Shown here piece by piece: positions 4,476-26,349 of a stretch of 35,385 bases of DNA. The DNA is from a virus. Taxonomy: Duplodnaviria; Caudoviricetes. The position numbers were made by a program, and so were the translations under genes. The number at the start of each line of letters is the position of its first letter. Within the stretch, counting starts at the first letter, position 1. The stretch covers positions 1-35,385 of the IMG/VR virus record IMGVR_UViG_3300036797_000127; one strand, written 5' to 3'. Under the pieces are notes generated by a model. The model had not been told where the DNA came from. It saw only the letters and a list, made by a program, of their open reading frames with translations, and did no database searches.

Positions 4476-5216
4476 TTAATTGTTTATCAGCCGATGCCTT
4501 GATGCAGCAGCAGCGCCGCCTAATTTGAAAGCTGCGACTACCATATATGTGGAAGAGGAGGCACTTCCCGTGGTGTTCATGCTTGGCGTGCCAGAACTGA
4601 CTACCGCATTGTTATAGGCCGATTGTGAAGTAAGTCCAAAACTTCCGTTGACGAATTCAATCCCAGTCTCTCCTGAAGGAACAGTGTAAGTAGTTGCTCC
4701 ACCAGTAACTCCCGCACCATATATCAGCACGTCGGTAGTCGTCAGTGAGCCACTCGAAATTGCCACACTGAAATTAGTTGTGGTGGTATTTAAGGCAAAG
4801 CCAGTCTGATCTAAGCAACCAGAAGTTTTGTTTCCGCTAAACTCCATAATGTGAATGGCGTACCAATTACCGCCCCCACCTGACACAGAAACCGTGGGAG
4901 CCACACCGCCAACAGCGCTGCAAACGTAGAATATTCCTGGAGGATAGGCACCTGGAGTCACAGCATGTGACCACGTTCCATTACTTGGATCACTGACGGT
5001 GGCAGTTGATGAAGACCCCGTGTTAACCCACACTAAAGCAACCAGTAGATTGCCCGCTGTATTATTTGACGAATAAGCCTTGGACGTACTCGTAGAGAAC
5101 GTAAAGCCGGAGGTATGTTGTACAAGCGCGAAAGTTTGCGACTCCGCCTTCTGCGGAATCAGCAACCCAAGGCAACACAGAAGAGAAGCAATCAGAAATC
5201 GTTTTATTGGTTGCAT
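4476..5216 (-). CDS. Signal-peptide-bearing beta-rich protein (tail-fibre/receptor-binding position)
   Basis: MQPIKRFLIASLLCCLGLLIPQKAES|Q; ALVQ...SNNTAGNLLVALV...TVSD beta-sandwich pattern; visibly more AT-rich than its neighbours. Confidence 0.8.
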   Translation of the reverse strand: MQPIKRFLIASLLCCLGLLIPQKAESQTFALVQHTSGFTFSTSTSKAYSSNNTAGNLLVALVWVNTGSSSTATVSDPSNGTWSHAVTPGAYPPGIFYVCSAVGGVAPTVSVSGGGGNWYAIHIMEFSGNKTSGCLDQTGFALNTTTTNFSVAISSGSLTTTDVLIYGAGVTGGATTYTVPSGETGIEFVNGSFGLTSQSAYNNAVVSSGTPSMNTTGSASSSTYMVVAAFKLGGAAAASRHRLINN

Positions 5217-6196
5217 GTGATGTCGATCTCCGCGTATTTTGCCGTCGCCACGGTTTTGAGTTGAATGCCGAAAATATCGTTGGCCGTGACCGAGGTCGTC
5301 CAGCCGGACAGCGTTGTGCTGTGAATTGAAGTTCCGGTCGAAATGGCCGGAAGGGCCGAGGCCGTGATCGTGTTCGTCACCGTGGGAATGGCCGTACCAG
5401 TTGCGATCTTCCAAATGTCGAAAGTCACGGTTCCGGCGTCGACTGACGCATTCCATGCGGTGATGGTGCATGCATAAGGAACGGTGAAGTAAACGACCGA
5501 GCCTGACGTCAGCGCCGATCCTCCTGTGTCGCCGAAGGTTGTGCCGAAATCGCGCACGTTGATCCCGGTCGCGAGGCGCGCGGTCGCGAGCGTGCCGCTA
5601 GAAATATTCGAGGCGTTTGTTGTGTCGGTTGTGGCGGAGGTAGCGAACGACACGCCGCCCGTTTTGCTGGTTGTGGTCGCGCAGCTTCCCGCGCTCGATG
5701 TCGTGTCGCCCGTGAGCGCCGGCATGTTTGCGCAAGTAACTGATCCGACGCTGCCAGCCGTGGCGCTGATCTCGGCCGGGAAAAGCTGCATCGTGTATGT
5801 TCCGCCGGAGCCGTTCGTGGAGAGCACGCGGCCGATTACCTGGCCGCTCGAAGGATAAGACGAAGCTGTATCGTGGCAGTCGCCAGCCGTCGAGGAACTG
5901 ATCTGCACGTAATCCCCCGCCGTGGTCGCCCCATCGAAGACGCAGGGAACGCTGCCGGAAAGTTGAACCGTAGCGTTTCCCGTCGTTCCGGCGCCGCCTA
6001 CCGTGACCCCGATGACTCCGCTTGTGTCGGTAGTCGCTGCGCGGACTGCAGTCGACGGCGCGCCTGTCAGCTTTGTAAGTTTATTGAGCACGGTTCCGGT
6101 CGTCCCAGCGTTGGCGAAGACGAGACGATTAGATTGCGCAGCAAGCGGAGACGAAACCACCGCCAGAAGCGCAAGTGCTGCGAATACTTTCTTCAT
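5204..6196 (-). CDS. Signal-peptide-bearing virion-type protein (DUF2190/cement-like N-domain, fibre-like linker, beta-sandwich C-domain)
   Basis: RBS GAGG; MKKVFAALALLAVVSSPLAA|Q; GVIGV...G.ATVQLSG...GDYV...VIGRVL; C-terminal VPYACTITAW...DIWK...LSGWTTSV. Confidence 0.8.
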   Translation of the reverse strand: MKKVFAALALLAVVSSPLAAQSNRLVFANAGTTGTVLNKLTKLTGAPSTAVRAATTDTSGVIGVTVGGAGTTGNATVQLSGSVPCVFDGATTAGDYVQISSSTAGDCHDTASSYPSSGQVIGRVLSTNGSGGTYTMQLFPAEISATAGSVGSVTCANMPALTGDTTSSAGSCATTTSKTGGVSFATSATTDTTNASNISSGTLATARLATGINVRDFGTTFGDTGGSALTSGSVVYFTVPYACTITAWNASVDAGTVTFDIWKIATGTAIPTVTNTITASALPAISTGTSIHSTTLSGWTTSVTANDIFGIQLKTVATAKYAEIDITCNQ

Positions 6197-6210
6197 TCTG
6201 TTCCTCTTTC

Positions 6211-7017
6211 CTAATAGCGATACCAAGCGAGAAAACTGTCCCCGGTCGCTGGCGCATTCACCATCGTGATGTTTAGTCCTGAGAGCGTGAAGTCGACACC
6301 GCCAGGAAAAAGCACAGCTGCTCCCCCGCTCGCGAATCGCTGCACGAGAATCAGAGAACCCGCCGGGCTCGGCGAATGGGCCAGAGTGAACGCCGCGTTC
6401 GATCCATTAATCGAGCCGCCGGGAGTTTCCGAATCCGCGAAGTTCAGGCCGGCGCCGGTCGGGATTGCCTTGGCCTTATATTTTCCTGAAGCGTTGTCAT
6501 AAGTGATGACCCATCCATCCGTCGGAGTCCCGACCGTGGTTGCATCGAGAGGTTTTCCTTCCAGTCCGACCACGGTTTGAGATGAGCTTGACCCGCTCAG
6601 GTCTCCGCCAGCTGCGAAAATTCCGCCGCTGCCGCCGGTGAGCTGCACGACGTTCGTCCCGTCGCTGTACACCTGCACGAATCCAGCTGCCGCGGCGATC
6701 GTGATGGTCGACCCAGGCGCGCCGGTCACCTGCACGACGAGGCTGTGGCCGCCGGTGGTGGCGTTTTCAAAAATAAAGGAGCGTTCCACGGAGGCGGGAA
6801 GATTGACGTGCCGGTCCGCCGTCAGCGCGCCGGTGATCTTGATCGCGCCGCCCGAAGCGAGTTGCACCTGCGTCAACGTCATGTCCGCATCCGAATTGGC
6901 GAACGAGACGAGTGCGTTCTCCGCGTTGTCCAGCGCATCAAATGCGCCGTTCGCCGTGACCTCCGGCTGATTCTGCGCCGCGGCGATGTGCGTAATTGCT
7001 AAGTTCGGTGAAGCCAT
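6211..7017 (-). CDS. Tail fibre adaptor-like protein (DUF2793-like N-terminus)
   Basis: MASPNLAITHIAAAQNQPEVTANGAFDALD; directly follows the megatron-like gene. Confidence 0.75.
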   Translation of the reverse strand: MASPNLAITHIAAAQNQPEVTANGAFDALDNAENALVSFANSDADMTLTQVQLASGGAIKITGALTADRHVNLPASVERSFIFENATTGGHSLVVQVTGAPGSTITIAAAAGFVQVYSDGTNVVQLTGGSGGIFAAGGDLSGSSSSQTVVGLEGKPLDATTVGTPTDGWVITYDNASGKYKAKAIPTGAGLNFADSETPGGSINGSNAAFTLAHSPSPAGSLILVQRFASGGAAVLFPGGVDFTLSGLNITMVNAPATGDSFLAWYRY

Positions 7018-7026
7018 ATTCTCCCC

Positions 7027-10000
7027 TTAAACTGCGGCAGCTCCGGCGAATCCTCGGCCTACTTGCGCCGATAGCTGATAAACCTTGATCGAGACGGAGG
7101 CCTGCGGTGATCCGAAATCGGTTGTCTGGTCCGCGGCGCTGTAGCTCGCCGTCGGCGAGCTCGCGGCGATCGTGCGCACCACGGTCGAGCCGTTCAGAAT
7201 GTCGACGCTGTAGGCTTCGCTCGATTCACTCAGCGGAACGGGATCCTGCGAAAGATTCATCCAGCCGACGCGCGTGCGGCGAACCCACGCGATCGTCAGG
7301 TTGTGGCTTCCATCGCGAGTTCCGGCCATGTGCACTGGCGCGTACGGTTTCAGATCATTTCCCGCGATCGTGAAATTCTGCGGCGAGACGAGCGTTGGAT
7401 CCGCTCCGGCCGTAACGCCTTTTTTGTAGTGAAGCTGCCCGACGATCGAGAGCGGGTCCTGAATTCTCTGCACGCCTGTACCTGGCACGGTCGCCTGCTC
7501 GCCTACTGCATGCGTGCCGCAGGCCCATTCCGTTCCGCGTCTCCCGCGCAGAAGCCCGGAAAGCGTCCACGACCCGTCTGCGTTGTGCACGGCCGTCGTG
7601 AATTGGATGAGCTCACTTCCAATGATTACCGCGTTCGATCCGTTTAGGACATTGGCCGGCGTGTCGCCCGCGAAGGTGCCGCGAATAAGTTGGATTGTGA
7701 CAGTGTTGACGTTGTCCCAGATCCAGGGAGATCGCGCCGGCGGACCGAGCACGGTGGTCGCATAACCGAACGTCACTGGCCGACTTGAGGTCGATTCCTG
7801 CAGGAAGTTCACGTCGTCCGTCGAATCCAAGAGCGCGCCGCCGTTCCAGGTGGGCGAGGGAGAGCTAAGAGCATAATAAAATCCCGTGTTCTGCGGGTTG
7901 CTGTCCACGTCGCGCAGAAGCGGAATATCGAAAAGGAAAAGTAACGTGGGCGCGAGGGTTTGTACGGCATTGTTGGGAAGCCCAAGACCTGCGCCGCCGG
8001 TGGCAGCGGAATTGAAGACCTCGGAGAATTCGCTTACTCCCTGCAGGGCAACGGCGCGGCCCTGGCCGATGGAGTTTTCCGCGACGCGCATCTGAAAGGC
8101 CAGCGTTTCATAGTCGAAGCCGATCACGTCGGTGGGATCGAGAAGCAGATAACTCGCGCGCCAGAGATTCGTTTTATAAGAACTGCGCTCAAGCCAGGAC
8201 AAATACAGCGCCTTAACCGCCACTTGCCGCGCCCAGTCCGAGGTCATCGTCATGGGAATTTCGAGAATTGTCTGCTGCTTCGTTTTTACGATGCGGACGT
8301 TGCGGCCCTTGAGCTGTTTATTCTGTTGGAAGTCCAGCGTGGGATCGTTGTGCGTCACCGTGAATTGCTTCGGCAGGTCCTGCTCCTGTGCGATCTGCTC
8401 CTCGAGCTTGGCCATGTCGGAGAGAAGTCCAAGGTCGGCCTCCGGAATTGTGAGAGCTGCAGGCAATCCGCGCGGAACGAATTTCATGGTGCCGTTTGTT
8501 TCGCAGGCGTCGAAGAAATACGCGTGCATCAGCACTTCCAGAATCTTCGCGGCCGGCGTCGGATGGTCGATGAGATAACCGGGCACGAGATTCGTCGGCG
8601 TGAGCGGAGTCTGGATATTCACCGGAGCGCAGAGCGTATTGTCAATTTGCGGATCGGTGAGCCCAGCGCGCTCGCAAATGTCGTGCAGCACGTCAGGCTT
8701 CGGCGTGACAGCCGTTGGGGGAAGCGTCGCCGGTGGTTTGAATGTCGCCCAGCACCCCGCGCCACCGTCCCCGAAATTGTCGAAATAGAACGACCAACTG
8801 TCGCTCACGTTAAATCCGCCACCGCCCACCGGATAGGCGCCAGGGAGAGCTCCAAAAGCGGATACGAAAATGCGCGTTCCTGCTCCCGTGGAGGCGCCGA
8901 CCGGCGTATTCAGTGTGATTTGCACGGCGGGCGGCTCCGTTAGCGGGTTATCTCCAATGATTGCGTTCGGCTGTGAATATGCGGCCGCGAAACATGCCGC
9001 CAGAAAATCTCCTGGCTGGCTAGAATGGCCAGAGGTGGAACTCCCAGTCGAACCCTCCAGATCGTCCGTCCATGCGCCGCCGTAGTCGGGAACCCACGTT
9101 CCAGGAAGAACGTAAATTTCGTAGCTGACGCTGGCGCCGGCCGCCACAGTGATCGTGTTGGCGCCAGCCGAAGCGTGGGCATACAGGATCTGAACCGAAG
9201 AATTTTCACGGCCCAGCGGTCCGCTGGATACGACACTGTTGTAAACATTTCCCTGACTGTCCGAGACGGAGATCGCTCCGCCTCCGCCGGCATAGCCCGC
9301 GGGAACTCCCACCGTGATGACAATCGTGTCTCCGGAGTTCAGCGGCGCGAGTGGAATGGTCGCGGGCGACGTGCTGGCCGCCGCGAGCACCTGCGTCGGC
9401 ACGCCATAGTTCGAGAGAAGATTTGTGGTCCGGGTATAGGTAATCTCGGCGCGGAAGCTGGGAATGCGATCGGCGAAATTGCCAAGCCACAAGTTATCCC
9501 AGACGCAGTAGTTCAATCCGCGAAATGCAGGCGTGAGCGCCTCAGTTTCCGACGCCTGAATCAGCGAATCTGGAAGCTGCGCCTCGTCTCCTGGATAAAA
9601 TGTCGGCGGGGGATAAAGTTGTTGAAGCGGAATCCAATATAGCGCCGTATAGCTGCCATTCGGACCATTCACCGTAAAAGTTTGATTGGAAGCCGGATTA
9701 ATCGCCCCTACGGTCCCATTGTTCGTCGCGTTTTGCGCAATGTACAGGACCCCGTTGAAGCTCACAATATCCCCTGAAAGATATTCCGTGTTAACGTCCC
9801 AGGGCGGATAGATGCTGATGATCTCCCAATTCCTGTTGGACTGGCTGGGAGCAGAGTTTGTATTCGTGGCGATGCACTGCCACACCTGCCCAGCGAAGTT
9901 TACTTGGTTCCCCGGATTGTAAAGCTCCGTCGAACTCCATGCGGGCCAGTCGCTGACGGGCGAGGTGTTCGTGCCACCGGGATTCGCATCGTAAATCAGC

Positions 10001-10350
10001 TTGGAATCCGCCCATATGCGAGTGATGACACCTGGACCCTCGCCGAACGAAACGGCCAAGCTCGCGGTAAATACGTAAGACCCTTTTGGCCCATAATCGA
10101 CGCCGCTAAATAATCTGCTGAGGGCCTGCTTCTTACCTCCGGCGCTATAAGTAATTCCAGTAGTCCAGATCACGTTCCCGGCCACGCGGCAGGTTCCGTA
10201 CCCGAATGGAATCGGCGCGCCGTTCGTGCCCGTCATCACCTGCAGATCACGCAGCGGAGGCAGCGGCGTCTTCGGACGGTTCAGTAGCCGATAGATCATC
10301 AGGCCGACGTCGAAGGCGGCCTGCACGGCAACGATTGCGATCAGCGCCAT
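7027..10350 (-). CDS. Central tail-tip / host-specificity protein (RcGTA g15 megatron-like, Phage-tail_3)
   Basis: GAPIPFGYGTCRVAGNVIW, PAFRGLNYCVW...FADRIPSFRAEI, LSGLLRGRRGTE, WVRRTR; internal CBM5/12-like repeats. Confidence 0.88.
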   Translation of the reverse strand: MALIAIVAVQAAFDVGLMIYRLLNRPKTPLPPLRDLQVMTGTNGAPIPFGYGTCRVAGNVIWTTGITYSAGGKKQALSRLFSGVDYGPKGSYVFTASLAVSFGEGPGVITRIWADSKLIYDANPGGTNTSPVSDWPAWSSTELYNPGNQVNFAGQVWQCIATNTNSAPSQSNRNWEIISIYPPWDVNTEYLSGDIVSFNGVLYIAQNATNNGTVGAINPASNQTFTVNGPNGSYTALYWIPLQQLYPPPTFYPGDEAQLPDSLIQASETEALTPAFRGLNYCVWDNLWLGNFADRIPSFRAEITYTRTTNLLSNYGVPTQVLAAASTSPATIPLAPLNSGDTIVITVGVPAGYAGGGGAISVSDSQGNVYNSVVSSGPLGRENSSVQILYAHASAGANTITVAAGASVSYEIYVLPGTWVPDYGGAWTDDLEGSTGSSTSGHSSQPGDFLAACFAAAYSQPNAIIGDNPLTEPPAVQITLNTPVGASTGAGTRIFVSAFGALPGAYPVGGGGFNVSDSWSFYFDNFGDGGAGCWATFKPPATLPPTAVTPKPDVLHDICERAGLTDPQIDNTLCAPVNIQTPLTPTNLVPGYLIDHPTPAAKILEVLMHAYFFDACETNGTMKFVPRGLPAALTIPEADLGLLSDMAKLEEQIAQEQDLPKQFTVTHNDPTLDFQQNKQLKGRNVRIVKTKQQTILEIPMTMTSDWARQVAVKALYLSWLERSSYKTNLWRASYLLLDPTDVIGFDYETLAFQMRVAENSIGQGRAVALQGVSEFSEVFNSAATGGAGLGLPNNAVQTLAPTLLFLFDIPLLRDVDSNPQNTGFYYALSSPSPTWNGGALLDSTDDVNFLQESTSSRPVTFGYATTVLGPPARSPWIWDNVNTVTIQLIRGTFAGDTPANVLNGSNAVIIGSELIQFTTAVHNADGSWTLSGLLRGRRGTEWACGTHAVGEQATVPGTGVQRIQDPLSIVGQLHYKKGVTAGADPTLVSPQNFTIAGNDLKPYAPVHMAGTRDGSHNLTIAWVRRTRVGWMNLSQDPVPLSESSEAYSVDILNGSTVVRTIAASSPTASYSAADQTTDFGSPQASVSIKVYQLSAQVGRGFAGAAAV

Positions 10351-10842
10351 TTAGGAATCGACTCCCGGGTAAATGAACACGCCGGCGATCCGCGATCGCC
10401 AGCGCTCGTCGAGACGAACTTCCACAATCCTCCCTTGAATGGAACTTCTGAGGCGCACGGGATACGGGAAAATCAGGCCGAGGCCGTCTCCCTGCGGAAA
10501 ATCGCTGACGATCCCGCAATGAGAAATCGAGTTCGGCGCGCGCAGCCCGAGAACATCGCCGGGCTTTGGCGCTTCGCCCTCGGCCCGCTGAAGGAGACGC
10601 GCGCGGCAGCCCTCGTGAATCAATTCCTGATGCGGCTGCGGGCCTATGTCCATGTAATCGGTCCTCAGAATGGGGATCCCGAACATGTCCACAAGCCCGA
10701 GATCCTCGCCGACGCACACGAGGAGCCCCGCGCAGTCGATCTCCGCGCTGCGGCCGCCGCCAGGGCGTCCGCGCCCCTGGTGGCGAAAGGCCATGCCCAC
10801 GTACTCGCGCGCCTTCGCTACAATTTGATTTCTAGCCGGCAT
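10351..10842 (-). CDS. NlpC/P60 tail-tip peptidase
   Basis: AREYVGMAFRHQGR...IDCAGLL...PGDVL...HCGI; position between hub and megatron. Confidence 0.9.
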   Translation of the reverse strand: MPARNQIVAKAREYVGMAFRHQGRGRPGGGRSAEIDCAGLLVCVGEDLGLVDMFGIPILRTDYMDIGPQPHQELIHEGCRARLLQRAEGEAPKPGDVLGLRAPNSISHCGIVSDFPQGDGLGLIFPYPVRLRSSIQGRIVEVRLDERWRSRIAGVFIYPGVDS

Positions 10843-11761
10843 TGGGATAGTTGAGAATTGCGTCCATTCCAGGGATGAACGGTTCACCGCGAAAATTCAC
10901 AGTGTTGTTGTACTTCTGATGGCAGTCATAGATGGTGTGATTGCAGCCCGGCTCAATCGTGAACGTGTCGCTCGCCGCCGGCAGCACCTGCCCGAGCGGA
11001 AGGAAGAGAACAAGCGTCGTGCCGTCCCAGCTTTTGATTTCCACACTCACTCCATTCAACGCGCCGCTCGTGAACGTGAGAATGCCGTCGTCGAACCATC
11101 CGACGGGCGCCGGCGCGGTCGGGGTTGCGGATCCGACTTGCAGAAGTCCAGAGGCCGGCACAATCGTGAATTGGTTCGTCACACTCGACATGGATCCCGA
11201 CTGGCGATATGTGGTCACATCAATCTTGCAGAGCCAGGTGGAAAGCATGTCGATGCCGTTGAGGCCCGAGCCGAACTGCGCCCGACAAATCGGCCCGTAG
11301 CTGTCGCCGAGGACCGTTCCAAAACGATAGGCAAGCCCGCGATGTTCCGCCGTCCACATTCCGTTTTTCAGCTTGACGACGCCGAGCGTGCCCGTGCGGA
11401 TGAGCACATGGCCCATGGTGAGATCGTTCCAGTTGACGACCATTAGCGAAACGAGCGCGTCATCATATTTGTTTTCGCGCAGGTCCTGCTCAGTGATGGC
11501 AGAGGAATCGATGAAGCCCTTCACTTCCGTGTTGTCGACGCTCACATCGCTTTTTCCTGCGATTGCCGAGGTGCTGTAGCCGGTTTTGGAGAGGTAAGTG
11601 ATGGAGCCGTCGCCAGAGCTGTCGTCGTAGGCGATGTCCACGTCGTGCGAGCTAAATCCCAGGAGCGTCCCGTCGGCTCGCTTTACTTTCCAAATCCAGG
11701 CGAGCGTGGTGGGATTGGCCGTAGCGAGGTGGGCCTGCATTGCGGTCGAAGCGATTTTCAT
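10832..11761 (-). CDS. Baseplate hub, DUF2163 / Phage_BR0599 (GTA g13-like)
   Basis: W.VKRADG..LGFSSHD; CRAQFG...C; GCNHTIYDCHQKYNNTVNFRGEPFIPG; ATGA overlap at 11758-11761. Confidence 0.92.
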   Translation of the reverse strand: MKIASTAMQAHLATANPTTLAWIWKVKRADGTLLGFSSHDVDIAYDDSSGDGSITYLSKTGYSTSAIAGKSDVSVDNTEVKGFIDSSAITEQDLRENKYDDALVSLMVVNWNDLTMGHVLIRTGTLGVVKLKNGMWTAEHRGLAYRFGTVLGDSYGPICRAQFGSGLNGIDMLSTWLCKIDVTTYRQSGSMSSVTNQFTIVPASGLLQVGSATPTAPAPVGWFDDGILTFTSGALNGVSVEIKSWDGTTLVLFLPLGQVLPAASDTFTIEPGCNHTIYDCHQKYNNTVNFRGEPFIPGMDAILNYPNAG

Positions 11762-12942: not shown

Positions 12943-12953
12943 AAATCTCCTTT

Positions 12954-13250: not shown

Positions 13251-13258
13251 TTTTGCCC

Positions 13259-13912: not shown

Positions 13913-13922
13913 AGGCTAAAAT
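13893..13922 (+). promoter_or_regulatory. Candidate sigma70-type promoter for a leaderless antisense gene
   Basis: TCGACT(13893)-18-TAAAAT(13917); ATG 13929 lies 6 nt after the -10 box. Confidence 0.5.
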
Positions 13923-13928
13923 AACTCC

Positions 13929-14153: not shown

Positions 14154-17100
14154 CCTCTCGCCCTGGCAAGTTCCATTTGCGCATGCAGCCCCGCATAGAT
14201 TTGGCTCTGCGAGCGCCGGAAGCTGTCGTGATCCGAAACGCCGTGCACATGGAAGTTGACCGTCGTTTCCCTCGCGCCACCGCCGCCAGGCGATGAGGAC
14301 GACGGTGAAGCGGAACGCGCTGCGCGGCCGATAAAGACCTCTGGATGGTTCTCGCCAACGACGTAGGAATGGCCGGGGGTTACGTCGCCGCCCGCGGCGC
14401 GGAATCCGTCAAAGGCCTGTCCGACGCCCGCCAGTGGATTATTTTCCTGCGAGGATTTCATCAATGAAAATGAGGGAATGATCGTTCCTGAACTTTTTGG
14501 CACGAACAGTTCCGGGCCTTTTTCACCAACGATGTATGCGCTGCCGTGATCCGCAGGTCCGCCCGAAGCGCGGAATCCGGCGAATATATTGAAAATATCG
14601 GAAAACAATCCTCCACCAGACCCAGGGTCGCTTGAATCTCCTCCGCCTCCCCCTCCGCCAAACAAACCGCCCAGCATGGAAAGTAGTCCGCCGCCTGATG
14701 TCGATCCGCTCGAATCTCCTCGACTGGAATCGCTAGACGTTCCTCCGAACAGGCCGTCTAACGTCGAAAGAAGGCCGCTCCCACCGCTCGAATCCGACTC
14801 TGGACTGAGTAGGGACATAAGTCCGGTCGAAGATTTCCCCGAACCGAAACCAGGACCGAGAGGAAGATTCCCGGTGAGATCGCCGAGAATGCCACCGCCG
14901 CTGTTATCGGTGGCCGCGCCGAAAACAGAAGATCCAGCCGTCGCCGTCAGAACATATATGGGATCGTTTGATGATCCGGTCGGAGCCGACCCGCCTCCGC
15001 CTGTTTTTATGCCGAATACTTTGGCAATCGAACCGATGATTCCGCCGGGGCCAGAGCTTGTCGTGTTACCAGGGGAAAGGAAGGGCGGAGTCGTCGCTGT
15101 TCCGGGAGCACCCAGTATCGAACCGTACGAACGGCCGCTACCGAATCCCGGACCGAGCGGAAGTTTTCCAGCTCCCACTTCCTGCACGAAGAGCGGGTTG
15201 CCGGACGATTCACCGCGCTTTCCTTCAAGGCCAGGAATCTTGATGCCGATGGCTTTCTCAAGCGAGCCGGCTGCCGATTGAAGTTGAATCTTGATCATCG
15301 ACTCCGCGAAGCCCTCGAACATCTGCTTGAAGTTCGATTTCCCGGTGACGATCAGCTTCGCGATATTGTCTTCGACTCCGCCAATCGCTTTGTTCATGGC
15401 GTCGGCGATTTTTCCGCCAACATCCTCCGCATCGAGCGCGACCTGGTTGAGAACCGCGTGCATCTGTTCGCCGAACGAGCCGACCTTGATAGCCGCCTGG
15501 TCCCATTGCTCGATTTGCTGGCGCTGCGCGTCGTAAATCGCTGCGTCGATGAGAAGCGTCGAGGCTCCCTCCGACTGGATCAGCTCGCGGACCTGTTCAA
15601 GTTTCTGAATCCGATTGTTGTATGCAGCGGCGATGTCGTATTGCGCGGCTTCTTGAGCGATGGCGGTTGCGTACGCTTGATTGCTTTGCGTGCGGAGCGC
15701 TTCATTCTCCGCGTTAATTTGTTCCACGGATGCGCCCGGGTGCGCCTGTGTCCAGCGGTAAAGTTCCAGCGCGACCTGCGCGGCACGCACGGCCTGCTCA
15801 TTTTCGAGATAGGCGTGATTCAGGGCTTCGACGAGCGGAGTCGCACCTTGTAATTCTGCGGCCTGTTTGTTGAGTTCGGCGTCGATTCCCAAATCGCGAA
15901 GCGTGGCCGCCTGCGTTTTCAGAGCGCTGAATTTCTCCGTCGCCGCATCAATCGCTGCGGAGAGTTGCGAGAGGGCTGGAGACGGTCCCTGTCCTTGCTC
16001 CTTGCCGACAATGCCGATTCCAGGAATCGCCTGAAGCCGCGCGTATTCATCGCGCAGGTCGTCGATCTTGTCTTTTTCGGCTGCGAGTTGCTTGTCGATT
16101 TCGGCGGAGGCGACGGCCGCGGGACCTTTGCCGTACGAGGCCGAAACTTCAGTCAGGGAAGCGATTTGCTTGTCGAAGTCGTCGGATTTCTTCTGAAGCT
16201 CATCGCTCGTCGAGCTGCTGGCCTTCGCAGCGGCAATTTGCGCATAGAGTTTTGTGAACTGCGGAGCGGCAGCATCGAGCGCCGCCAGTTCCTTGCGGAC
16301 ACCAGCGATGCGCGCAGAGATCCTTGCAGATTCTTCGCCCGTCGAGGTCGAAAGCTGCTCCTGTAGCGATTTCTGCTCCGTGAGCAGCCCGTTGCGAACG
16401 TCCTGAACTTTCTGCGCAGCTTCGGCGGCCGCCTTCTGGAACATCATGGCCGCCGTGGTGCGGTCCATCGCTCCGGCGAGCGAAAGCTCTGCGGTCGCTT
16501 GGGCCTGCAACTTCGCAAGGTCTTCGCCAACTACGTCCTTGGTCGATACACCCAGCCCTTTGCTTTTTGTGGCCGTGTCAATATTAGCAGAGCCCTGCCT
16601 GTGGACTGGAACCATCCATCCAGTTCGATCGCCAGGGCTTGTATTTTTTACAAACGCGGCAAAGTCTGACCATATTCCCTTAGAGCTCTGAACGTCATCC
16701 TTGAGGCTGGAGGTCCATTTCGAGGAATAAGTTTTTAGTCCTTCGGCGAATCCTTTAAAGTTTACAGTTAGCAACGCACGGGATAGATCATTCGCCAATT
16801 CGACGATGTATTCCAGTTGGGCGCCAAATCCAACAAGCGCGATCGCCGCTTGGTTTACGGCCGTCCAGATTGCGTCCAGCGGAACGGCGATCATTCTCGT
16901 CAGTTCAGCAATAGCGTGCGCCCATTTGTTTGCTCCTTCCGCGCTGGATTCAAAAGAACTGGTTATGGCGCTCAGAAGCGGGAGTAAGTCGCGCGCGAGC
17001 GTCAGTGCAAATCCGTTGGCGATAGCATCGAGCTCCCCGAGTTTTAGAGAGAACTGATGGGCAGCTTGCGCCGTTTCTCCGTTTACGACTATTCCGAATC

Positions 17101-17857
17101 GCGCAGCCGACGCCATCATTCCGTCAATTCCGGCTTTTCCAAGATTCAAGGCCGGAAGCAGCGCCGCGCCGTTGCGTCCAAACAGCTCAATCGCCAAGGC
17201 TGTCTTCGCTACTCCATCCGGCATAGATGCGAACTTGCCAGCGATGTCTGCAAAGATTGCTTCGGTTGATCGAATCTGTCCGCTTGAATCCCTTACCGCA
17301 ATTCCGAGGCGCGTGTAAGCGTTGATGGCTCCAGCCGGAGCCGTCGCCGCCGCGAACGCGCTTTTGCTCATTTTTTCCAAGCCGCGAGCCATTGTCTCTT
17401 GATCGACGCCGACTTGCCTTGCCGCAAATCCAAGGCCGCTAAGAGCTTCGGTACTGACGCCAGTGCTCTGCGCCAGTTCGTAGAGCTTCTCTGCCGACTG
17501 GGCCGCATGAACAGCAACTCCAATGGTTGCGACTTCTATCGACGCGATGGCAGCGGTAGCTCCAGCCCCAAGCGACGCGATTGCCCCGAGAGCCGATTTG
17601 GTCGATCCGAATTCCTTCATCGCGGACGACGCAGCTCGCCCCATTGTGGAAAGAGCAAAACTCAACTGGCTAATGGCTGGATTGAAAGAACCGAATGCCC
17701 CGAAGGTTTGCGAGGCTATGCGTTGGAGAGAGGAAAATTCCTTGGAGATATTTTTTGCGGATTGCTGTGCGGTATACGCAGCTTTGGAAAGAGCGTCGAC
17801 GAACTTCGCTGTGTTGGCGTTCAGTTCGACGTAAATGCTGCCGAGGGACTGAGGCAT
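14150..17857 (-). CDS. Tape measure protein
   Basis: 1235 aa, Ala-rich helical; LGSIYVELNANTAKF N-terminus; C-terminal GFRASGG...YIVGEKGPELFVP motif. Confidence 0.93.
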   Translation of the reverse strand: MPQSLGSIYVELNANTAKFVDALSKAAYTAQQSAKNISKEFSSLQRIASQTFGAFGSFNPAISQLSFALSTMGRAASSAMKEFGSTKSALGAIASLGAGATAAIASIEVATIGVAVHAAQSAEKLYELAQSTGVSTEALSGLGFAARQVGVDQETMARGLEKMSKSAFAAATAPAGAINAYTRLGIAVRDSSGQIRSTEAIFADIAGKFASMPDGVAKTALAIELFGRNGAALLPALNLGKAGIDGMMASAARFGIVVNGETAQAAHQFSLKLGELDAIANGFALTLARDLLPLLSAITSSFESSAEGANKWAHAIAELTRMIAVPLDAIWTAVNQAAIALVGFGAQLEYIVELANDLSRALLTVNFKGFAEGLKTYSSKWTSSLKDDVQSSKGIWSDFAAFVKNTSPGDRTGWMVPVHRQGSANIDTATKSKGLGVSTKDVVGEDLAKLQAQATAELSLAGAMDRTTAAMMFQKAAAEAAQKVQDVRNGLLTEQKSLQEQLSTSTGEESARISARIAGVRKELAALDAAAPQFTKLYAQIAAAKASSSTSDELQKKSDDFDKQIASLTEVSASYGKGPAAVASAEIDKQLAAEKDKIDDLRDEYARLQAIPGIGIVGKEQGQGPSPALSQLSAAIDAATEKFSALKTQAATLRDLGIDAELNKQAAELQGATPLVEALNHAYLENEQAVRAAQVALELYRWTQAHPGASVEQINAENEALRTQSNQAYATAIAQEAAQYDIAAAYNNRIQKLEQVRELIQSEGASTLLIDAAIYDAQRQQIEQWDQAAIKVGSFGEQMHAVLNQVALDAEDVGGKIADAMNKAIGGVEDNIAKLIVTGKSNFKQMFEGFAESMIKIQLQSAAGSLEKAIGIKIPGLEGKRGESSGNPLFVQEVGAGKLPLGPGFGSGRSYGSILGAPGTATTPPFLSPGNTTSSGPGGIIGSIAKVFGIKTGGGGSAPTGSSNDPIYVLTATAGSSVFGAATDNSGGGILGDLTGNLPLGPGFGSGKSSTGLMSLLSPESDSSGGSGLLSTLDGLFGGTSSDSSRGDSSGSTSGGGLLSMLGGLFGGGGGGGDSSDPGSGGGLFSDIFNIFAGFRASGGPADHGSAYIVGEKGPELFVPKSSGTIIPSFSLMKSSQENNPLAGVGQAFDGFRAAGGDVTPGHSYVVGENHPEVFIGRAARSASPSSSSPGGGGARETTVNFHVHGVSDHDSFRRSQSQIYAGLHAQMELARARG

Positions 17858-18235
17858 TTAGCTGGCCTGTGCCTTGTTTTGCGGGAAGGAACTAAAAAAC
17901 TTTTTAAACGATTCTGCGCGCTGCTCTTCGGACTCCTCTTCCAGCGCCTCGAAATTAAACACCAGGCTTGCAACGTCGGCTGCAGGAAACGCCGCGAAAC
18001 CGTCCAGTTGCACCGGGCCAAAACTATATTCCTTTATTCCATTCGGAAGTACGATCTTCATCGAAACCAATGCTTCGGAGCGTATTGCGCGCATTACCTC
18101 CATTTGACCGGGGTCATCTGGGATATGGTTGGCTTCAATTTCCACGCGCTTGCCGATCTTCAGCGACCTTACTTCTCCTATGTTTTTGCCATTGATCGTG
18201 AATACGCTGCCGGAGGAGCAAAATGCTTTTGACAT
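17858..18235 (-). CDS. Degenerate tail-tube paralogue with a gpGT-like C-terminus
   Basis: MSKAF/IGEV/NHIPDDPGQ/KIVLP match the tail tube MSQAF/VAEV/NFIPGNATQ/KITLP; TAAATG coupling on both sides. Confidence 0.7.
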   Translation of the reverse strand: MSKAFCSSGSVFTINGKNIGEVRSLKIGKRVEIEANHIPDDPGQMEVMRAIRSEALVSMKIVLPNGIKEYSFGPVQLDGFAAFPAADVASLVFNFEALEEESEEQRAESFKKFFSSFPQNKAQAS

Positions 18236-18628
18236 TTAACTTGCCCTCGCTTTCTCTTCCATTTCTATTTTTTTATCTTGCAGAACTTTCATGGAACTAA
18301 ACCAGCCCTTGAACTGCTCTAACTTCTCTTCTTCTGTCGGTTCGCGGTCTCGCTCCGGATCGGCAATGAAATCATCCGGCGAAACAACCGGCGCGTTCCG
18401 ATCTCGAAACGGATTCCCATTGAACACCGCAGCAGCCACGACGCCGGCACACAGGAGCGCGTGACGTTGTTCACGACTGCGGCGCGTGAGCAGCGCGTCA
18501 ATCTGCGCCGAGGTTAACTCGCCGATTTCGCTTTCGGAGACTCGGCAGTCGTAACGAGCGATGGCCCAGAGCTCGAGCCATCCGATGGCGACGGGTTCGG
18601 CTCTTCCGTCGCCTCGCTGGCCAAAGGG
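18236..18628 (-). CDS. Tail assembly chaperone gpT segment (reached by -1 frameshift)
   Basis: The -1 frame reads WLELWAIARYDCRVSESEIGELTSAQIDALL...GVVAAAVFN...SPDDF, a typical gpT pattern. Confidence 0.85.
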   Translation of the reverse strand, partial: PFGQRGDGRAEPVAIGWLELWAIARYDCRVSESEIGELTSAQIDALLTRRSREQRHALLCAGVVAAAVFNGNPFRDRNAPVVSPDDFIADPERDREPTEEEKLEQFKGWFSSMKVLQDKKIEMEEKARAS

Positions 18629-19044
18629 TCCGCGTCACCGCCCTCCGCCGCGGCTTTTTCAGCCCGTTCACGTTCACGGCGCAATGCATCGGCCTGATCT
18701 TTTGGCAGATAGAGCAGATAGGCGTCCCATAGCGCACGGACGGCTTTCTCTTGATTCGTTCCGTCAAGCATGGAGCCGACCGCTTCGATCCCATCCTCGG
18801 CAGCGAATTTCGGCTGATGCGGCAAGAGCGCGGCCCACAGCATCACGCGCAATACGCGCGCGGATAGCTTGATCCAAATGTCGAAGCTAAGAGCCGTCAG
18901 GCCCGTTTTTTCGCTGATTTCGGCGAGGACGTTCAGATTGAAGGAGACGCGGTAGGCTTCGCTGAAGGAACCCCTTTCATCAGTGTATTCGATGATCAGG
19001 GGAACGGACGGCGCGATGCGCCGCCGCAGAGCGGAATCCGACAT
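18514..19044 (-). CDS. Tail assembly chaperone gpG
   Basis: Position between tail tube and TMP; contains the slippery site in DPL codons. Confidence 0.85.
   Translation of the reverse strand: MSDSALRRRIAPSVPLIIEYTDERGSFSEAYRVSFNLNVLAEISEKTGLTALSFDIWIKLSARVLRVMLWAALLPHQPKFAAEDGIEAVGSMLDGTNQEKAVRALWDAYLLYLPKDQADALRRERERAEKAAAEGGDADPLASEATEEPNPSPSDGSSSGPSLVTTAESPKAKSAS
18622..18628 (-). promoter_or_regulatory. -1 programmed ribosomal frameshift heptamer C CCT TTG
   Basis: X XXY YYZ in the correct phase (GAC CCT TTG); the -1 frame is open to 18236. Confidence 0.85.
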
Positions 19045-19085
19045 ATTTCACCTCGTAAAAAATTGGAATTATATAATTGGCTCGG

Positions 19086-19328
19086 TTACTTTCCCTTGGG
19101 CCGCTCGCCAAGGCCTTTTTCCACAAGTATTTCTGCCACATCCTCGACATGAAGGCAGTCCACCATGCAGGCAAAGTCGTTGGCGGGCTGAATCGTTGCG
19201 ATGGAGCCGTTGCAATAGTCATTGCCTGGAGTAGCGCTGTGTAACACGCCGAAGGAAACGACCTTTCCGCCATCCAGCTTGACGATTTTGTCACCGTTCT
19301 TTGCCTCTCGTCCGTTTCTGTAATGCAT
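19086..19328 (-). CDS. Small hypothetical protein inserted in the tail operon
   Basis: Strong RBS AAGGAGG; MHYRNGREAKNGDKIV...YCNG...CMVDCLH. Confidence 0.8.
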   Translation of the reverse strand: MHYRNGREAKNGDKIVKLDGGKVVSFGVLHSATPGNDYCNGSIATIQPANDFACMVDCLHVEDVAEILVEKGLGERPKGK

Positions 19329-19453
19329 TGTTCCTCCTTCGCTTCCTCGTGGGAGTTAACTGTGTAATTCCCGAAAAAATCTAAGCAGACTTCCCGGAAC
19401 ACGCCGGAGGTGATCGGTGGTTCCGCCGCGGTCTGCCAGCGCGGAGTTCTTTG

Positions 19454-19870
19454 TTACCAGGTAACGGTCATCGGCCCGGTGACTTTCAGCTTCACCGAGC
19501 GCGTGGCCTGTTTCTCGACCGGCAGATCGAAATCCTTGGACGAGACGTAGGCGCGGAATGTGGCGTTCCCGAGCGTGCTGGGCAGCGTGATCTTGTAGTA
19601 GCCGAGCGTCTGATTGTTGAAGTCGGTCTCCAAGATTTGCTGCGTGGCGTTGCCGGGAATGAAGTTGCAATCCACGGCGATGTCGCCCGAATCCACGAGC
19701 GTTGCGAGGAACTCGCGGAAGCTGGACGGACTGTCAAAATTCGTGACATCTGCCAAATCCGCCTTGGAGCCGGTATTTTGGACCTTCGTCACTTCGGCGA
19801 CGGTCGTATAGGTCACGCCGTCGGGCGAGTGCTGAAACAGTGTTGCGCGGGGTGCGAATGCTTGGCTCAT
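19454..19870 (-). CDS. Major tail tube protein
   Basis: VAEV...DVTNFDSPSSFREFLATLVDSG...NFIP...ATFRAYV...LKVTG. Confidence 0.9.
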   Translation of the reverse strand: MSQAFAPRATLFQHSPDGVTYTTVAEVTKVQNTGSKADLADVTNFDSPSSFREFLATLVDSGDIAVDCNFIPGNATQQILETDFNNQTLGYYKITLPSTLGNATFRAYVSSKDFDLPVEKQATRSVKLKVTGPMTVTW

Positions 19871-19896
19871 CTAAAAATTCTCCTTTGTTTTTGTTT

Positions 19897-20328
19897 TCAA
19901 GTCCCCAGATCCCGAAAGGCGATCTTCATATCCACCGAAGCGTTGAAAATGAACGGCGCATCCTCGAACGTTTCCATTTCGAGAACGCATTCCATGTCAT
20001 CGACCTGAGAACCGTCAACCATCGTCCCGGTGAAATTTTCAAGCGTTCGACGCACGGCGCGCTGCAATTTGGCGGCGTCCCCCGGCGTCGAGCCATAGCA
20101 ATTAAACTGGTAGCGCACAAAGCGCAGCGCGTCCGGACCATCCATCGTCATCAGTGACTCGCCGGCAATCTGCGAGAACACAACCGCAGGCATGGCCGCC
20201 GCCTCGGGCATCTGCACCTTGAAAATCCCGGTCGTTTTCATCGTTTCGGTGCGGGTCGCGGGCGTTCCGACAATGGCCGTGACGGCGCTTGCATTCGCGA
20301 GAACCGCATAGAGTCCGTCGGCGATCAC
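19897..20328 (-). CDS. Tail terminator (DUF3168-like)
   Basis: GLYAVLAN...PAVVFSQI...RYQFNCY; position before the tail tube. Confidence 0.8.
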   Translation of the reverse strand: MIADGLYAVLANASAVTAIVGTPATRTETMKTTGIFKVQMPEAAAMPAVVFSQIAGESLMTMDGPDALRFVRYQFNCYGSTPGDAAKLQRAVRRTLENFTGTMVDGSQVDDMECVLEMETFEDAPFIFNASVDMKIAFRDLGT

Positions 20329-20801
20329 GATGTACGCAGTCCCGAATCGTTCAGAGCTTCGCGAATTCCAGTGGTGAATCGGTCCAGCACTTCCTGTTTG
20401 CGGGCCTCGAATGCTGGACGCACGAATGGATAGGCGGGCATCGCAGGGTAATGGCGTCCGCGCGAAGATACGCCGCCCTTGCGCCCGAATTCCAGAATCA
20501 CAGCCCAGAAGAGATTGTAGTTTCCAGCCTTCGCCGCCGGGCCCGCCTCGGCGGAGCCGGACAGGTCGCTCTTGACTCTCGTGCGGACGGCAATATTCGC
20601 GGCCAGAAGTCCGAAATCATGATCTCCCTTGCCCTTGTGATGGGGGCCGCGACGAACCCTGCCGCGCATATCTTCGGCCCAAGGTTCGACCGCGGCGACC
20701 ATTTCCCGCCGAATAATTCTCTTCGCCGCGCGCGGAGGAAGTTCGCGCAGTGCGCGATCCAGTTCGGCAAGCCCGCTAATCTTGAATTCGATTTCAGCCA
20801 T
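20325..20801 (-). CDS. HK97 gp10-family tail completion protein
   Basis: ISGLAELDRALREL...LEFG...MPAYPFVRPAFE. Confidence 0.88.
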   Translation of the reverse strand: MAEIEFKISGLAELDRALRELPPRAAKRIIRREMVAAVEPWAEDMRGRVRRGPHHKGKGDHDFGLLAANIAVRTRVKSDLSGSAEAGPAAKAGNYNLFWAVILEFGRKGGVSSRGRHYPAMPAYPFVRPAFEARKQEVLDRFTTGIREALNDSGLRTS

Positions 20802-21129
20802 GCTCAGGAGCCCACACAATTCCTTGCGCGTTGCACGTCCGGCAGGGATCGAATACGACGGCCCCTTCGGAAATCGCGGGCGCCGTCATCGAATAAAATC
20901 CAGAAATCACTTTTGTCACGCCCTTACACACGGGACAAAGGAACGGACCTCCGCCCGAGTGCGCTGCCTCGTCGTAGAACCGCTGTGGCGCCTCCGCAGC
21001 GGAAGCGGCCCGCGAAACGATGTGCTCTGTAACACGTTCCGCCACAACCCTGCTCGCAACCTCCGGCAACATCGCCTCCGTGTGAAGGATGTTGGCGATT
21101 TCAGCGACGAATTTTGGATCAGTCTCCAT
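20794..21129 (-). CDS. Inserted zinc-finger protein
   Basis: CPVCKG...CRTCNAQGIVW; TGATG overlap with the head-closure gene. Confidence 0.7.
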   Translation of the reverse strand: METDPKFVAEIANILHTEAMLPEVASRVVAERVTEHIVSRAASAAEAPQRFYDEAAHSGGGPFLCPVCKGVTKVISGFYSMTAPAISEGAVVFDPCRTCNAQGIVWAPEHG

Positions 21130-21500
21130 CAAGGCTCGCGGCTCGAATTGTCACGCTCGATGCACAAGAGGTAGAGCACGTGACGTTGTTCGTTGGGATT
21201 CTCGACGGATTGAATCTGAAACTGCCGCGGCATTCCGGTTCCGGGATCGTTAAACCACGCGTTTTGCTGCGCCTTGATTCCCGCCTGGTAGCGCATGGTG
21301 ATTTTATGCGTGACCTCGCTAACCTTCTGCTGCGCCGAATACAGTTCTCGACCGGTTAGCGATTCAACCGCAGCCCGCACGGTTGCGACTGGAGTTTCTT
21401 CGCCGGGCTTGATGTTTCCCGAGGCGTCCTGCGCCAGCGTCGGTTGCATGATCTGCACGACGTGGCGCAGTTGGCCCGCCCGAATGCGCGCGCGCGGCAT
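21129..21500 (-). CDS. Head closure (stopper) protein
   Basis: RAGQLRHVVQI...GRELYSAQQ...THKITMRY. Confidence 0.9.
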   Translation of the reverse strand: MPRARIRAGQLRHVVQIMQPTLAQDASGNIKPGEETPVATVRAAVESLTGRELYSAQQKVSEVTHKITMRYQAGIKAQQNAWFNDPGTGMPRQFQIQSVENPNEQRHVLYLLCIERDNSSREP

Positions 21501-21940
21501 TAGTTTGGCGTCGTAATCACCGCGAACATGATCGCGGCGTTGCTACAGGCCAGATGGACTGTGCCGTCCGTTTGCCGGAAGCCAATGGTGCCGTTGCGGA
21601 AATTAAACGCGGAGAAATTGCCAGCCGCCACGGAATAGGTTGTGATGTCCTGCGTGCGGCCGTATTGGTCGGCAACCGAGGAAATCGTGATCGTATACGG
21701 TGACATGCCGCTGTTCTGGACGAGCAGAATATCCCGCCCCGTTATGGCGAACTTATTTCCGTTGGACACGTCGCAGGCGGTGAAAGCGAAGTCGAGGGTT
21801 CCTGAGCCCGGGGCGCCCACAAGATAGGGGCCGAGCGGCGTGATCGGCGTCAGTGAAGTTTGCACGGCAAATGCCGCCACGGCGCACAAAAGGAACATGC
21901 AACAAAGTGCTACGACTTTTTTTGCTGCTGGGTATTTCAT
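21500..21940 (-). CDS. Signal-peptide-bearing virion decoration-type protein
   Basis: RBS AAGGAG; MKYPAAKKVVALCCMFLLCAVAAFA|VQ; DVSNGNKF..TGRDILLVQNS...ITISSVAD.YGR. Confidence 0.8.
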   Translation of the reverse strand: MKYPAAKKVVALCCMFLLCAVAAFAVQTSLTPITPLGPYLVGAPGSGTLDFAFTACDVSNGNKFAITGRDILLVQNSGMSPYTITISSVADQYGRTQDITTYSVAAGNFSAFNFRNGTIGFRQTDGTVHLACSNAAIMFAVITTPN

Positions 21941-23192: not shown

Positions 23193-23215
23193 TCGTCACC
23201 CACTCTTGAAAATGA

Positions 23216-23244: not shown

Positions 23245-23257
23245 GTTTGATTTGAGA

Positions 23258-26347: not shown

Positions 26348-26349
26348 CG

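What the first reader, a model, noticed from the sequence alone, without database searches (positions are those of the whole stretch)
4476..21940. Five virion-type genes in the late operon carry Sec-like signal peptides
Seen: ORFs 21500-21940 (MKYPAAKKVVALCCMFLLCAVAAFA|VQ), 12277-12942 (MKKNTLRIGLAFLALVTLGMIFARPPLA|Q), 11758-12276 (MRAFLSFAAIALFAALPQ), 5204-6196 (MKKVFAALALLAVVSSPLAA|Q) and 4476-5216 (MQPIKRFLIASLLCCLGLLIPQKAES|Q) have a basic n-region and hydrophobic h-region, most with a plausible cleavage site. All are tightly packed or translationally coupled among head and tail genes. Their mature parts look like decoration, fibre or cement domains, several with paired Cys. Known: tailed virions assemble in the cytoplasm and their structural proteins normally lack export signals. 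Inference: an undescribed route in which accessory fibres are exported, fold (perhaps with disulfides) in the periplasm and join the virion at lysis; alternatively they are secreted receptor decoys.
Basis: partly seen in the sequence, partly recalled or inferred. Interest (0 to 1): 0.85.

Follow-up and report, generated by a model that had tools for sequence, protein, structure and literature searches.

The report
Phage decoration proteins with export signals
A soil phage, likely of Acidobacteria, starts five accessory genes of its particle-building operon with predicted bacterial secretion signals that many relatives of the same genes lack, so these outer decoration and fibre parts are likely folded outside the cytoplasm and would clip onto the finished virus only when the cell bursts, a route not described for tailed phages in the papers I searched.

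Summary
Confirmed, with limits. The window is an HK97-type temperate siphophage. All five ORFs begin with basic-then-hydrophobic leaders at starts supported by ribosome-binding sites or coupling. The core head, neck and tail genes have none. SignalP was not available; my own rule passed four of the five.

Best evidence: 21500-21940 has 54 non-redundant relatives, 34 with a leader and 20 without. The leaderless forms start where the leader is predicted to be cut. The leader changes state about five times on the tree, and a cysteine pair occurs in 29 of 34 versus 0 of 20. Behind its leader, 5204-6196 has a predicted capsid-cement fold (TM 0.80). 12277-12942 and 11758-12276 sit in a mobile cassette behind a leaderless jelly-roll gene. 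Cultured Cellulophaga phages carry unrelated leader-bearing proteins annotated as structural from mass spectrometry.

Best reading (0.6): Sec export, periplasmic folding, docking on the particle at lysis. Export, cleavage and virion binding are all inferred. The main rival is free secreted decoys or adhesins (0.2). Two stated cleavage sites are non-canonical. This scan noted the same theme on other DNA (52 earlier findings).

The parts
21500..21940 (-). 146-aa protein: 25-aa leader (AFA|VQ) plus a 121-aa small beta-sandwich with Cys56/Cys132; lies between head-tail adaptor and head-closure genes; likely neck or tail-tube decoration
   Evidence: (phrog_16194 tail protein, E 1e-5)
12954..13250 (-). 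98-aa leaderless predicted jelly-roll protein; first gene of the mobile cassette; candidate cytoplasm-made docking base
12277..12942 (-). 221-aa protein (GTG start): leader, conserved mature N-terminal QxQQSxG motif, variable Thr/Ser/Gly stalk, conserved C-terminal domain with two Cys; candidate head or whisker fibre
11758..12276 (-). 172-aa protein with the weakest leader; its C-terminal domain (4 Cys in the mature part) also ends a 723-aa leader-bearing protein in L116
5204..6196 (-). 330-aa protein: leader (LAA|Q), predicted Phage_cement_2-fold domain (21-140), fibre-type repeat (161-212), C-terminal domain; 6 Cys; candidate capsid-bound fibre
4476..5216 (-). 246-aa protein: leader (AES|Q) plus a beta-rich domain with 2 Cys that also occurs leaderless and inside a tail-tip protein
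6211..7017 (-). leaderless tail fibre directly after the central tail protein (internal control)
7027..13912 (-). leaderless RcGTA/phiJL001-type tail tip interrupted by the cassette: DUF2460 (13259-13912), BR0599 hub (10832-11761), minor tail protein, Rcc01698-like central protein (7027-10350)
14150..30342 (-). leaderless core morphogenesis genes: terminase, portal, S49 protease, major capsid, adaptor, head closure, tail completion, tail tube, tape measure
1790..3642 (-). lysis region: GH108 endolysin (3148-3642) and three unassigned genes, two with hydrophobic segments

Best explanation
The five genes encode likely outer accessory virion proteins (decoration and fibres) whose predicted Sec signal peptides would send them to the periplasm, where they would be cleaved and folded, and from where they would dock on the cytoplasm-built particle only at lysis. 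Shown: the leaders, their absence from the core genes, leader and leaderless forms of the same families in the same gene slots, and even cysteine counts. Predicted: the cement fold of 5204-6196 and the jelly-roll folds of 21500-21940 and 12954-13250. Inferred, in order: (1) late co-expression; (2) Sec export and signal-peptidase cleavage, which restores the N-terminus that leaderless relatives are made with; (3) oxidative folding; (4) binding to outer sites of finished particles once the inner membrane fails. The cement domain would bind the capsid, the 146-aa protein the neck or tail tube, and the 221-aa fibre would bind through its freed QxQQSxG end, possibly to the leaderless 98-aa protein.
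For: 21500 family: 34 of 54 non-redundant relatives have a 20-37-aa leader (Ala at -1 in 33 of 34) and 20 of 54 start M-x-Q/T-T at the predicted +1 position. Leaders diverge while the mature part is conserved: 11 of 25 versus 114 of 121 identical residues with L001. The tree of mature parts needs 5 changes of leader state (4-6 in bootstraps, at least 2 forced by starred branches). Both forms sit beside adaptor or tail-tube genes (neighbours read by likeness and order). The family matches phrog_16194 'tail protein', 9 BFVD phage models of 112-124 aa and mostly viral Atlas clusters. 5204 residues 21-140 match Phage_cement_2 models at TM 0.80 over 109 residues. Of 66 non-redundant proteins that share sequence with 5204, mostly its repeat, 22 have leaders and 44 do not. 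The 4476 domain occurs leaderless (L012, L109) and inside a 1309-aa tail protein. Even cysteine counts: 89 of 105 leader-bearing versus 312 of 804 other proteins with cysteines. Other leader-bearing genes lie nearby in 15 of 19 leader-type versus 1 of 17 leaderless-type loci. The 21500 and 12277 families were found in only 1 and 3 of 401 genomes of the likely host class, so they are not common host secreted proteins. Precedent: phi10:1 gp091-094 and phi18:3 gp085-087 are annotated 'structural protein' from MS/MS and all 7 have leaders, while the core structural proteins tested have none.
Against: No homologue of 21500, of its leaderless relative L011 or of 5204 was found in 50,697 annotated phage records, so no proteomics bears on these families directly. 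Leaders were judged by my own rule, which also fired on 6 of 97 leaderless members. Two cleavage sites are non-canonical. The associations with cysteine pairs and with other leader genes are not phylogenetically independent: only 2 independent pairs on starred branches, not significant. The cysteine pair is limited to 6 of 28 leader-bearing members of the wider family. The cement-like domain lies internally in other fibres (L014, L017), so it may be a trimerisation knob and not a capsid anchor, and the Pfam profile did not hit it. Leaderless virion proteins also form disulfides (PMC13576161, passages), so export is not required for them. MS/MS of phage preparations can include co-purifying secreted proteins. 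One leaderless-type contig (G008) has a leader-bearing 169-aa gene upstream of its packaging genes.
Confidence: 0.6

Rival explanations
1. The proteins are exported but never join the virion. They are former virion parts reused as free decoys, adhesins or periplasmic receptor blockers that are released at lysis or act in the infected cell.
For: The leaders are as expected for any secreted protein. The cassette moves between unrelated phage types and positions. 4476-5216 and the cassette have lower GC3 (0.43-0.56) than core genes (0.60-0.79), as morons often do. The phage keeps a leaderless tail fibre (6211-7017), so it may not need the five.
Against: The leader form of 21500 occupies the same slot as the leaderless form and keeps the same mature N-terminus. 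5204 keeps a cement-type domain at its mature N-terminus. The genes are co-oriented and tightly packed in the late operon, with no promoter-like site on their strand upstream of any of them (sigma-70 scan only). Unrelated leader-bearing proteins are annotated as virion-detected in two cultured phages.
Confidence: 0.2
2. The hydrophobic segments are uncleaved anchors, or signal-arrest-release segments. They hold the proteins in the inner membrane, where particles are tethered or pick them up as the membrane collapses, or they display the fibres on the cell surface.
For: Non-canonical cleavage sites in 12277 and 11758; long n-regions in some 12277 relatives; a 19-residue hydrophobicity peak of 2.0-2.6 in 12277 and 21500.
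Against: Ala at -1 in 33 of 34 leaders of the 21500 family, matching the leaderless N-terminus. A small residue (A, G, S) precedes the conserved Gln in 93 of 96 relatives of 12277 that carry the motif. Mature domains are predicted on the periplasmic side, away from cytoplasmic particles.
Confidence: 0.12
3. The leaders act in the cytoplasm: they are pro-peptides removed by the phage S49-family head protease, or they are chance hydrophobic extensions, and assembly is conventional.
For: The phage encodes an S49 protease, the family that includes the signal-peptide peptidase SppA (recalled).
Against: A closely similar protease N-terminus occurs in leaderless-type phages (L009, G009; read by likeness). 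The tripartite pattern is kept under strong sequence divergence. The even-cysteine bias points to an oxidising compartment. The background rate of the pattern in the window is at most 1 in 393.
Confidence: 0.08

Closest known systems
Capsid cement and decoration proteins: Phage_cement_2 (PF09956) and Phage_cement (PF22758; E217 gp24, Pam3 gp6 as named); lambda gpD and T4 Soc/Hoc (recalled)
   Same: Predicted fold of 5204-6196 residues 21-140 (TM 0.80). Decoration proteins bind the outside of matured capsids and can be added late, also in vitro (recalled).
   Different: Known members are cytoplasmic and leaderless (recalled). Here a signal peptide precedes the domain, a cysteine pair is added, and a fibre repeat and a C-terminal domain follow.
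RcGTA head spike: base Rcc01079 plus head fibre Rcc01080 (PMC7296036; passages seen)
   Same: A small jelly-roll protein encoded next to a fibre whose extreme N-terminal residues dock on it. The cassette has a leaderless jelly-roll gene followed by a protein with a conserved motif right after the leader.
   Different: The RcGTA fibre docks by residues 2-10 (Ile/Leu-Gly repeat), so it has no cleaved leader; the motif here is QxQQSxG. Structural kinship with Rcc01079 is inconclusive and docking is untested.
Cellulophaga phage phi10:1 gp091-094 (KC821618) and phi18:3 gp085-087 (KC821620)
   Same: Tailed phages with consecutive leader-bearing late genes annotated as structural from MS/MS, beside leaderless core genes. 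phi10:1 has a similar head-neck-tail gene set.
   Different: No sequence relation to the five proteins; Bacteroidota host; few cysteines. The record rows shown do not remark on the leaders.
phrog_16194 'tail protein' and small uncharacterised 112-124-aa phage proteins in BFVD
   Same: Mature part of 21500-21940 (E 1e-5 over residues 58-143; Foldseek E 3e-6 to 3e-4).
   Different: Those entries have the length of the leaderless form; their place on the virion is not given by these tools.
Filamentous phage coat proteins, and signal-peptide or SAR endolysins and lipoprotein morons of tailed phages (recalled)
   Same: Phage proteins routed through the host export machinery.
   Different: Filamentous phages assemble at the membrane without lysis; exported endolysins and morons are not virion parts. 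This phage has an HK97 head, a tail and its own endolysin.

Membership tests
Sec/SPI signal peptide | basic n-region followed by an uncharged hydrophobic h-region at the true N-terminus | tested here: met
   5 of 5; h score 2.55-3.13, stronger than any segment beyond residue 35; starts supported
Sec/SPI signal peptide | small residues at -3 and -1 of the cut | tested here: inconclusive
   canonical or acceptable in 21500, 4476, 5204; Pro at -3 (12277) and Pro at -1 (11758) at the stated sites, with alternatives nearby; relatives mostly have small residues there
Sec/SPI signal peptide | not a lipoprotein or Tat signal | tested here: met
   no lipobox, no twin-arginine motif
Sec/SPI signal peptide | Sec-dependent export and cleavage in vivo | not testable with these tools
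   needs reporter fusion and N-terminal MS
Phage_cement_2 (PF09956) for 5204-6196 | cement fold | tested here: met
   predicted model against predicted models, TM 0.80 over 109 residues; whole-protein pTM only 0.42
Phage_cement_2 (PF09956) for 5204-6196 | sequence match to the Pfam profile | tested here: not met
   no hit up to E 10 for residues 21-139; so 'cement-like', not a member
Phage_cement_2 (PF09956) for 5204-6196 | trimer bound to the capsid surface | not testable with these tools
   no virion data
RcGTA-type head spike for the 12954/12277 cassette | small jelly-roll base protein related to Rcc01079 | tested here: inconclusive
   jelly-roll model, pLDDT 86; best Z 7.3, rmsd 3.4, 87 aligned, to a chain of virus SH1
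RcGTA-type head spike for the 12954/12277 cassette | fibre N-terminus with Ile/Leu-Gly repeat | tested here: not met
   mature N-terminus is QxQQSxG in 96 of 119 relatives
RcGTA-type head spike for the 12954/12277 cassette | fibre N-terminus binds a base pentamer | not tested
   no complex prediction was obtained
phrog_16194 tail protein for 21500-21940 | profile match over most of the family model | tested here: met
   E 1.1e-5, profile positions 22-106 of 109; weak score

The most novel reading that the evidence does not exclude
A widespread group of tailed phages splits virion building between two compartments. The core particle is made in the cytoplasm. Decoration proteins and fibres are gated through Sec, matured in the periplasm and snapped on during lysis. 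Gaining or losing a signal peptide switches a given part between the two routes, and leaderless docking bases on the particle capture the exported fibres by their freshly cleaved N-termini.
Probability: 0.45. Interest if true: 0.92.

Novelty: categorically new. Interest (0 to 1): 0.8.

Why it matters
Tailed phages are taken to finish assembly in the cytoplasm before lysis. If outer parts are exported and attached at lysis, virions gain access to periplasmic disulfide formation and possibly glycosylation, and host range could depend on the envelope machinery of the last host. Co-infecting phages could also swap fibres after release, and signal-peptide genes now dismissed as morons would need re-annotation as virion genes. 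This locus is a clean test case, because one small family exists with and without the leader in the same gene slot.

Tried and rejected
Pfam, NCBIfam and PDB sequence searches gave nothing useful for the five proteins or the 98-aa protein; the hits are designed repeat proteins and the MshA hit (E 0.016) was set aside as weak. PDB fold searches for the 21500 and 98-aa models gave no clear match (best Z 7.0 and 7.3); the RcGTA base was not among the 50 rows shown, which does not exclude kinship. Profile-profile comparisons found no relation between the 21500, 12954, 12277 and 11758 families. tblastn in annotated phages: no match for 21500, L011 or 5204, and one weak partial match for the L013 fibre to a 'putative tail fiber protein'. 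No relative of 4476 in metagenome contigs; a first phmmer iteration found none locally. My idea that the 4476 domain is inserted in the window's own central tail protein was not supported at the threshold used. No RNA holder listed. No complex prediction: the queue was full. The sigma-70 promoter and terminator scan gave fewer sites than shuffles. The independent-pairs test had too few pairs. The hydrophobic N-terminus of the central tail protein 7027-10350 was not counted as a signal peptide (no basic n-region; RcGTA megatron N-termini probably insert in the target outer membrane, PMC7296036 passage). Literature: ten searches, judged from listings and abstract starts, showed no paper on Sec export of tailed-phage virion parts; one search returned only off-topic papers. 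The library lacks most subscription journals, I did not read the paper behind the Cellulophaga proteomics, and I opened no supplements, where signal-peptide columns might exist.
Full report
Setting. The window is a whole 35,385-base virus record; the one sequencing run that holds nearly all of 4400-13300 is a soil metagenome and may be its source. Profile searches show a temperate siphophage: integrase, terminases, portal, S49 protease, HK97-type capsid, adaptor, head closure, tail tube, tape measure, an RcGTA/phiJL001-type tail tip and a GH108 endolysin. Relatives with a similar gene order lie in three Acidobacteriota metagenome-assembled genomes (L007-L009). A leader-bearing relative of 12277-12942 lies in a genome of the class of one of them (L180). 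The host is therefore likely an acidobacterium; this is inferred.

The observation. The five ORFs and N-termini are as stated. SignalP was not available, so I used a simple tripartite rule. It flagged 4 of 37 called minus-strand genes, all among the five; 11758-12276 failed only at the cleavage step. The strict rule fired for 4 of 396 ATG-started peptides in the window, three of them these genes, and for no internal segment of them. Starts are supported by ribosome-binding sites or direct coupling, and no start just behind an h-region has such a site. The stated cuts of 12277 and 11758 contain Pro at -3 and -1, so their exact sites are uncertain. The L098 relative of 11758 (60% identical over 124 residues) has a clean LQA|Q leader.

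21500-21940 as a natural experiment. Searches gave 19 proteins, 5 and 43 viral loci, 6 genome loci and 1,509 clusters at 50% identity. I took 66 full-length rows; three partial loci and L113, L124 and L125 were left out. These reduce to 54 at under 90% identity. The length before the predicted +1 is bimodal: 1-2 residues in 20 rows and 20-37 in 34, with Ala at -1 in 33 of 34 and Ala or Val at -3 in 32 of 34. In the loci shown, leader forms mostly have a strong ribosome-binding site before the leader and none behind it (the middle of that output was cut). Against L001 the leader is 11 of 25 identical and the mature part 114 of 121. With the cysteine columns masked, the tree needs five changes of leader state (4-6 in bootstraps, at least two forced); it cannot tell gain from loss. 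Cys56 and Cys132 occur together in 29 of 34 leader forms and 0 of 20 leaderless forms. Among 130 of the 150 best distant representatives (those of 105-165 aa), 28 have a leader by my rule and only 6 of them have the pair, against 0 of 102 others; the rule misfired on 6 of 97 short forms. So the pair needs a leader but a leader does not need the pair. The model (pLDDT 81) is a small beta-sandwich with no clear PDB match. It has 9 BFVD matches to 112-124-aa phage proteins, and its Atlas neighbours are 65-83% viral. In the loci the gene lies after the adaptor or beside the tail-tube gene (neighbours judged by likeness and order), which suggests neck or tube decoration.

5204-6196 and 4476-5216. 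Residues 21-140 of 5204 match Phage_cement_2 models at TM 0.80, though not the Pfam profile. Short stretches of it, mostly the repeat at 161-212, gave 537 confirmed matches in a truncated scan of viral contigs. Among 66 non-redundant proteins from the loci held, 22 have leaders (20 with even cysteine counts) and 44 do not. In L013 a leader-bearing fibre with an 82%-identical C-terminal part sits in the same place, behind the central tail protein and a leaderless fibre. The cement-like domain is internal in L014 and L017, so it may also serve as a trimerisation knob. The 4476 domain begins without a leader in L012 (MAITFVQ against mature QTFALVQ; the contig ends in the gene) and L109. It was also found inside a 1309-aa tail protein (iE 2e-6 in the third round, no decoy hits).

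The cassette. 12954-13250, 12277-12942 and 11758-12276 interrupt the tail-tip genes here. In L093-L099 the first two genes, usually with one or more further leader genes, lie before the small terminase, between portal and head genes, or in other phage types. The 98-aa gene is leaderless. In all 12 profile hits among the loci held (several are copies of one contig) it is followed directly by a gene with a leader; 11 passed my rule and L097 has a long n-region. Of 119 relatives of 12277 (the best 120 of 437, minus its own record), 111 have a leader and the other 8 look like mis-called starts. 96 carry QxxQ[ST]..G right after the leader and 115 have exactly two cysteines. The 98-aa model is a jelly roll (pLDDT 86). 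The layout recalls the RcGTA head spike, where a jelly-roll pentamer binds residues 2-10 of the head fibre (PMC7296036, passages), but the motif differs and kinship and binding are untested.

A phage-level trait. Within up to 10 kb, 15 of 19 loci with the leader form carry other leader-bearing genes, against 1 of 17 with the leaderless form (29 of 234 versus 1 of 213 genes; L107 dropped because no genes were called). In six leaderless-type contigs (55-100% complete, two fetched only in part) I saw no leader-bearing fibre in the tail region; G008 has one leader gene upstream of its packaging genes. All five leader-type contigs have at least one more leader gene in the morphogenesis region. Across loci L001-L148, 89 of 105 leader-bearing proteins with cysteines have an even number, against 312 of 804 others. 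These counts are not independent of ancestry: only two independent pairs were available and the sign test is not significant. The 21500 and 12277 families were found in 1 and 3 of 401 genomes of the likely host class.

Precedent. Following a lead from earlier notes of this scan, I checked two cultured phages. phi18:3 gp085-087 and phi10:1 gp091-094 are annotated 'structural protein' from MS/MS and all seven pass my leader rule. The other structural proteins tested (eight in phi18:3; in phi10:1 capsid, adaptor, tail and gp083, 087, 088, 090) do not. They are unrelated in sequence to the five. This makes virion association of exported proteins plausible but does not prove it, since preparations can carry secreted proteins.

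Mechanism. Most likely (0.6) the core is built in the cytoplasm, the five accessory proteins cross the inner membrane by Sec, lose their leaders and fold with disulfides where present. They then bind outer sites of the particle when the membrane fails at lysis. Late addition is plausible because decoration proteins and fibres are known to bind finished particles (recalled). The gain may be oxidative folding, glycosylation of these Ser/Thr/Gly/Ala-rich chains (39-55% of residues), or keeping sticky adhesins away from assembly; I cannot choose among these. Leaderless virion proteins can also form disulfides (PMC13576161, passages; PMC10491603, listing only; PMC13419713, only a short text held with none of my terms). 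Rivals are free decoys or adhesins (0.2), uncleaved anchors (0.12) and cytoplasmic pro-peptides or chance (0.08).

Novelty. Ten literature searches showed no description of Sec-exported virion parts in tailed phages; subscription papers and supplements were not seen. The parts resemble known folds, but the route would be new. The scan's notes hold 52 findings on this theme in other genomes, none with a look-alike of this sequence; they are unchecked and not counted as support. Interest 0.8: the leaders and their family-level switching are solid, the virion step is untested but can be tested directly on cultured Cellulophaga phages.

Noticed in passing
G010 (L172, minus strand, about 6950-11060): Five genes of 225-350 aa that look like glycosyltransferases and a sugar epimerase (by eye, recalled motifs) sit between major capsid and adaptor genes in a leader-type phage; possible virion glycosylation.
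   Followed up: no
window 23258-23734: Leaderless 158-aa gene after the major capsid gene, with 9 matches in related loci (46-91% identity) and no family; candidate cytoplasmic capsid decoration.
   Followed up: partly
window 1790-3130: Three unassigned genes after the endolysin. 2226-2858 has an N-terminal hydrophobic anchor without a cleavage site and may be a spanin-like protein; no lipoprotein partner was recognised.
   Followed up: no
window 7027-10350: The central tail protein carries two CBM_5_12 carbohydrate-binding repeats and a long insert before the Phage-tail_3 domain; it is a single ORF here but the matching region is called as two or three ORFs in leaderless relatives such as G004, G009 and G011.
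   Followed up: no
P0021, P0023, P0069, P0132 versus P0022, P0034: Tandem-duplicated forms of the 21500 domain also exist with and without leaders, and the domain is fused to larger proteins in P0044, P0117, P0136 and P0164.
   Followed up: partly
G007 (L167, minus strand, 19328 and 18153): Leader-bearing genes on both sides of the prohead-protease-like gene, directly before the major capsid gene.
   Followed up: no
window 19086-19328 and 20794-21129: Small unassigned genes inserted in the neck-tail operon; 20794-21129 has CxxC pairs.
   Followed up: no
window 31981-33768: HerA/DUF87-type ATPase upstream of the packaging genes; a similar N-terminus occurs in G014.
   Followed up: no
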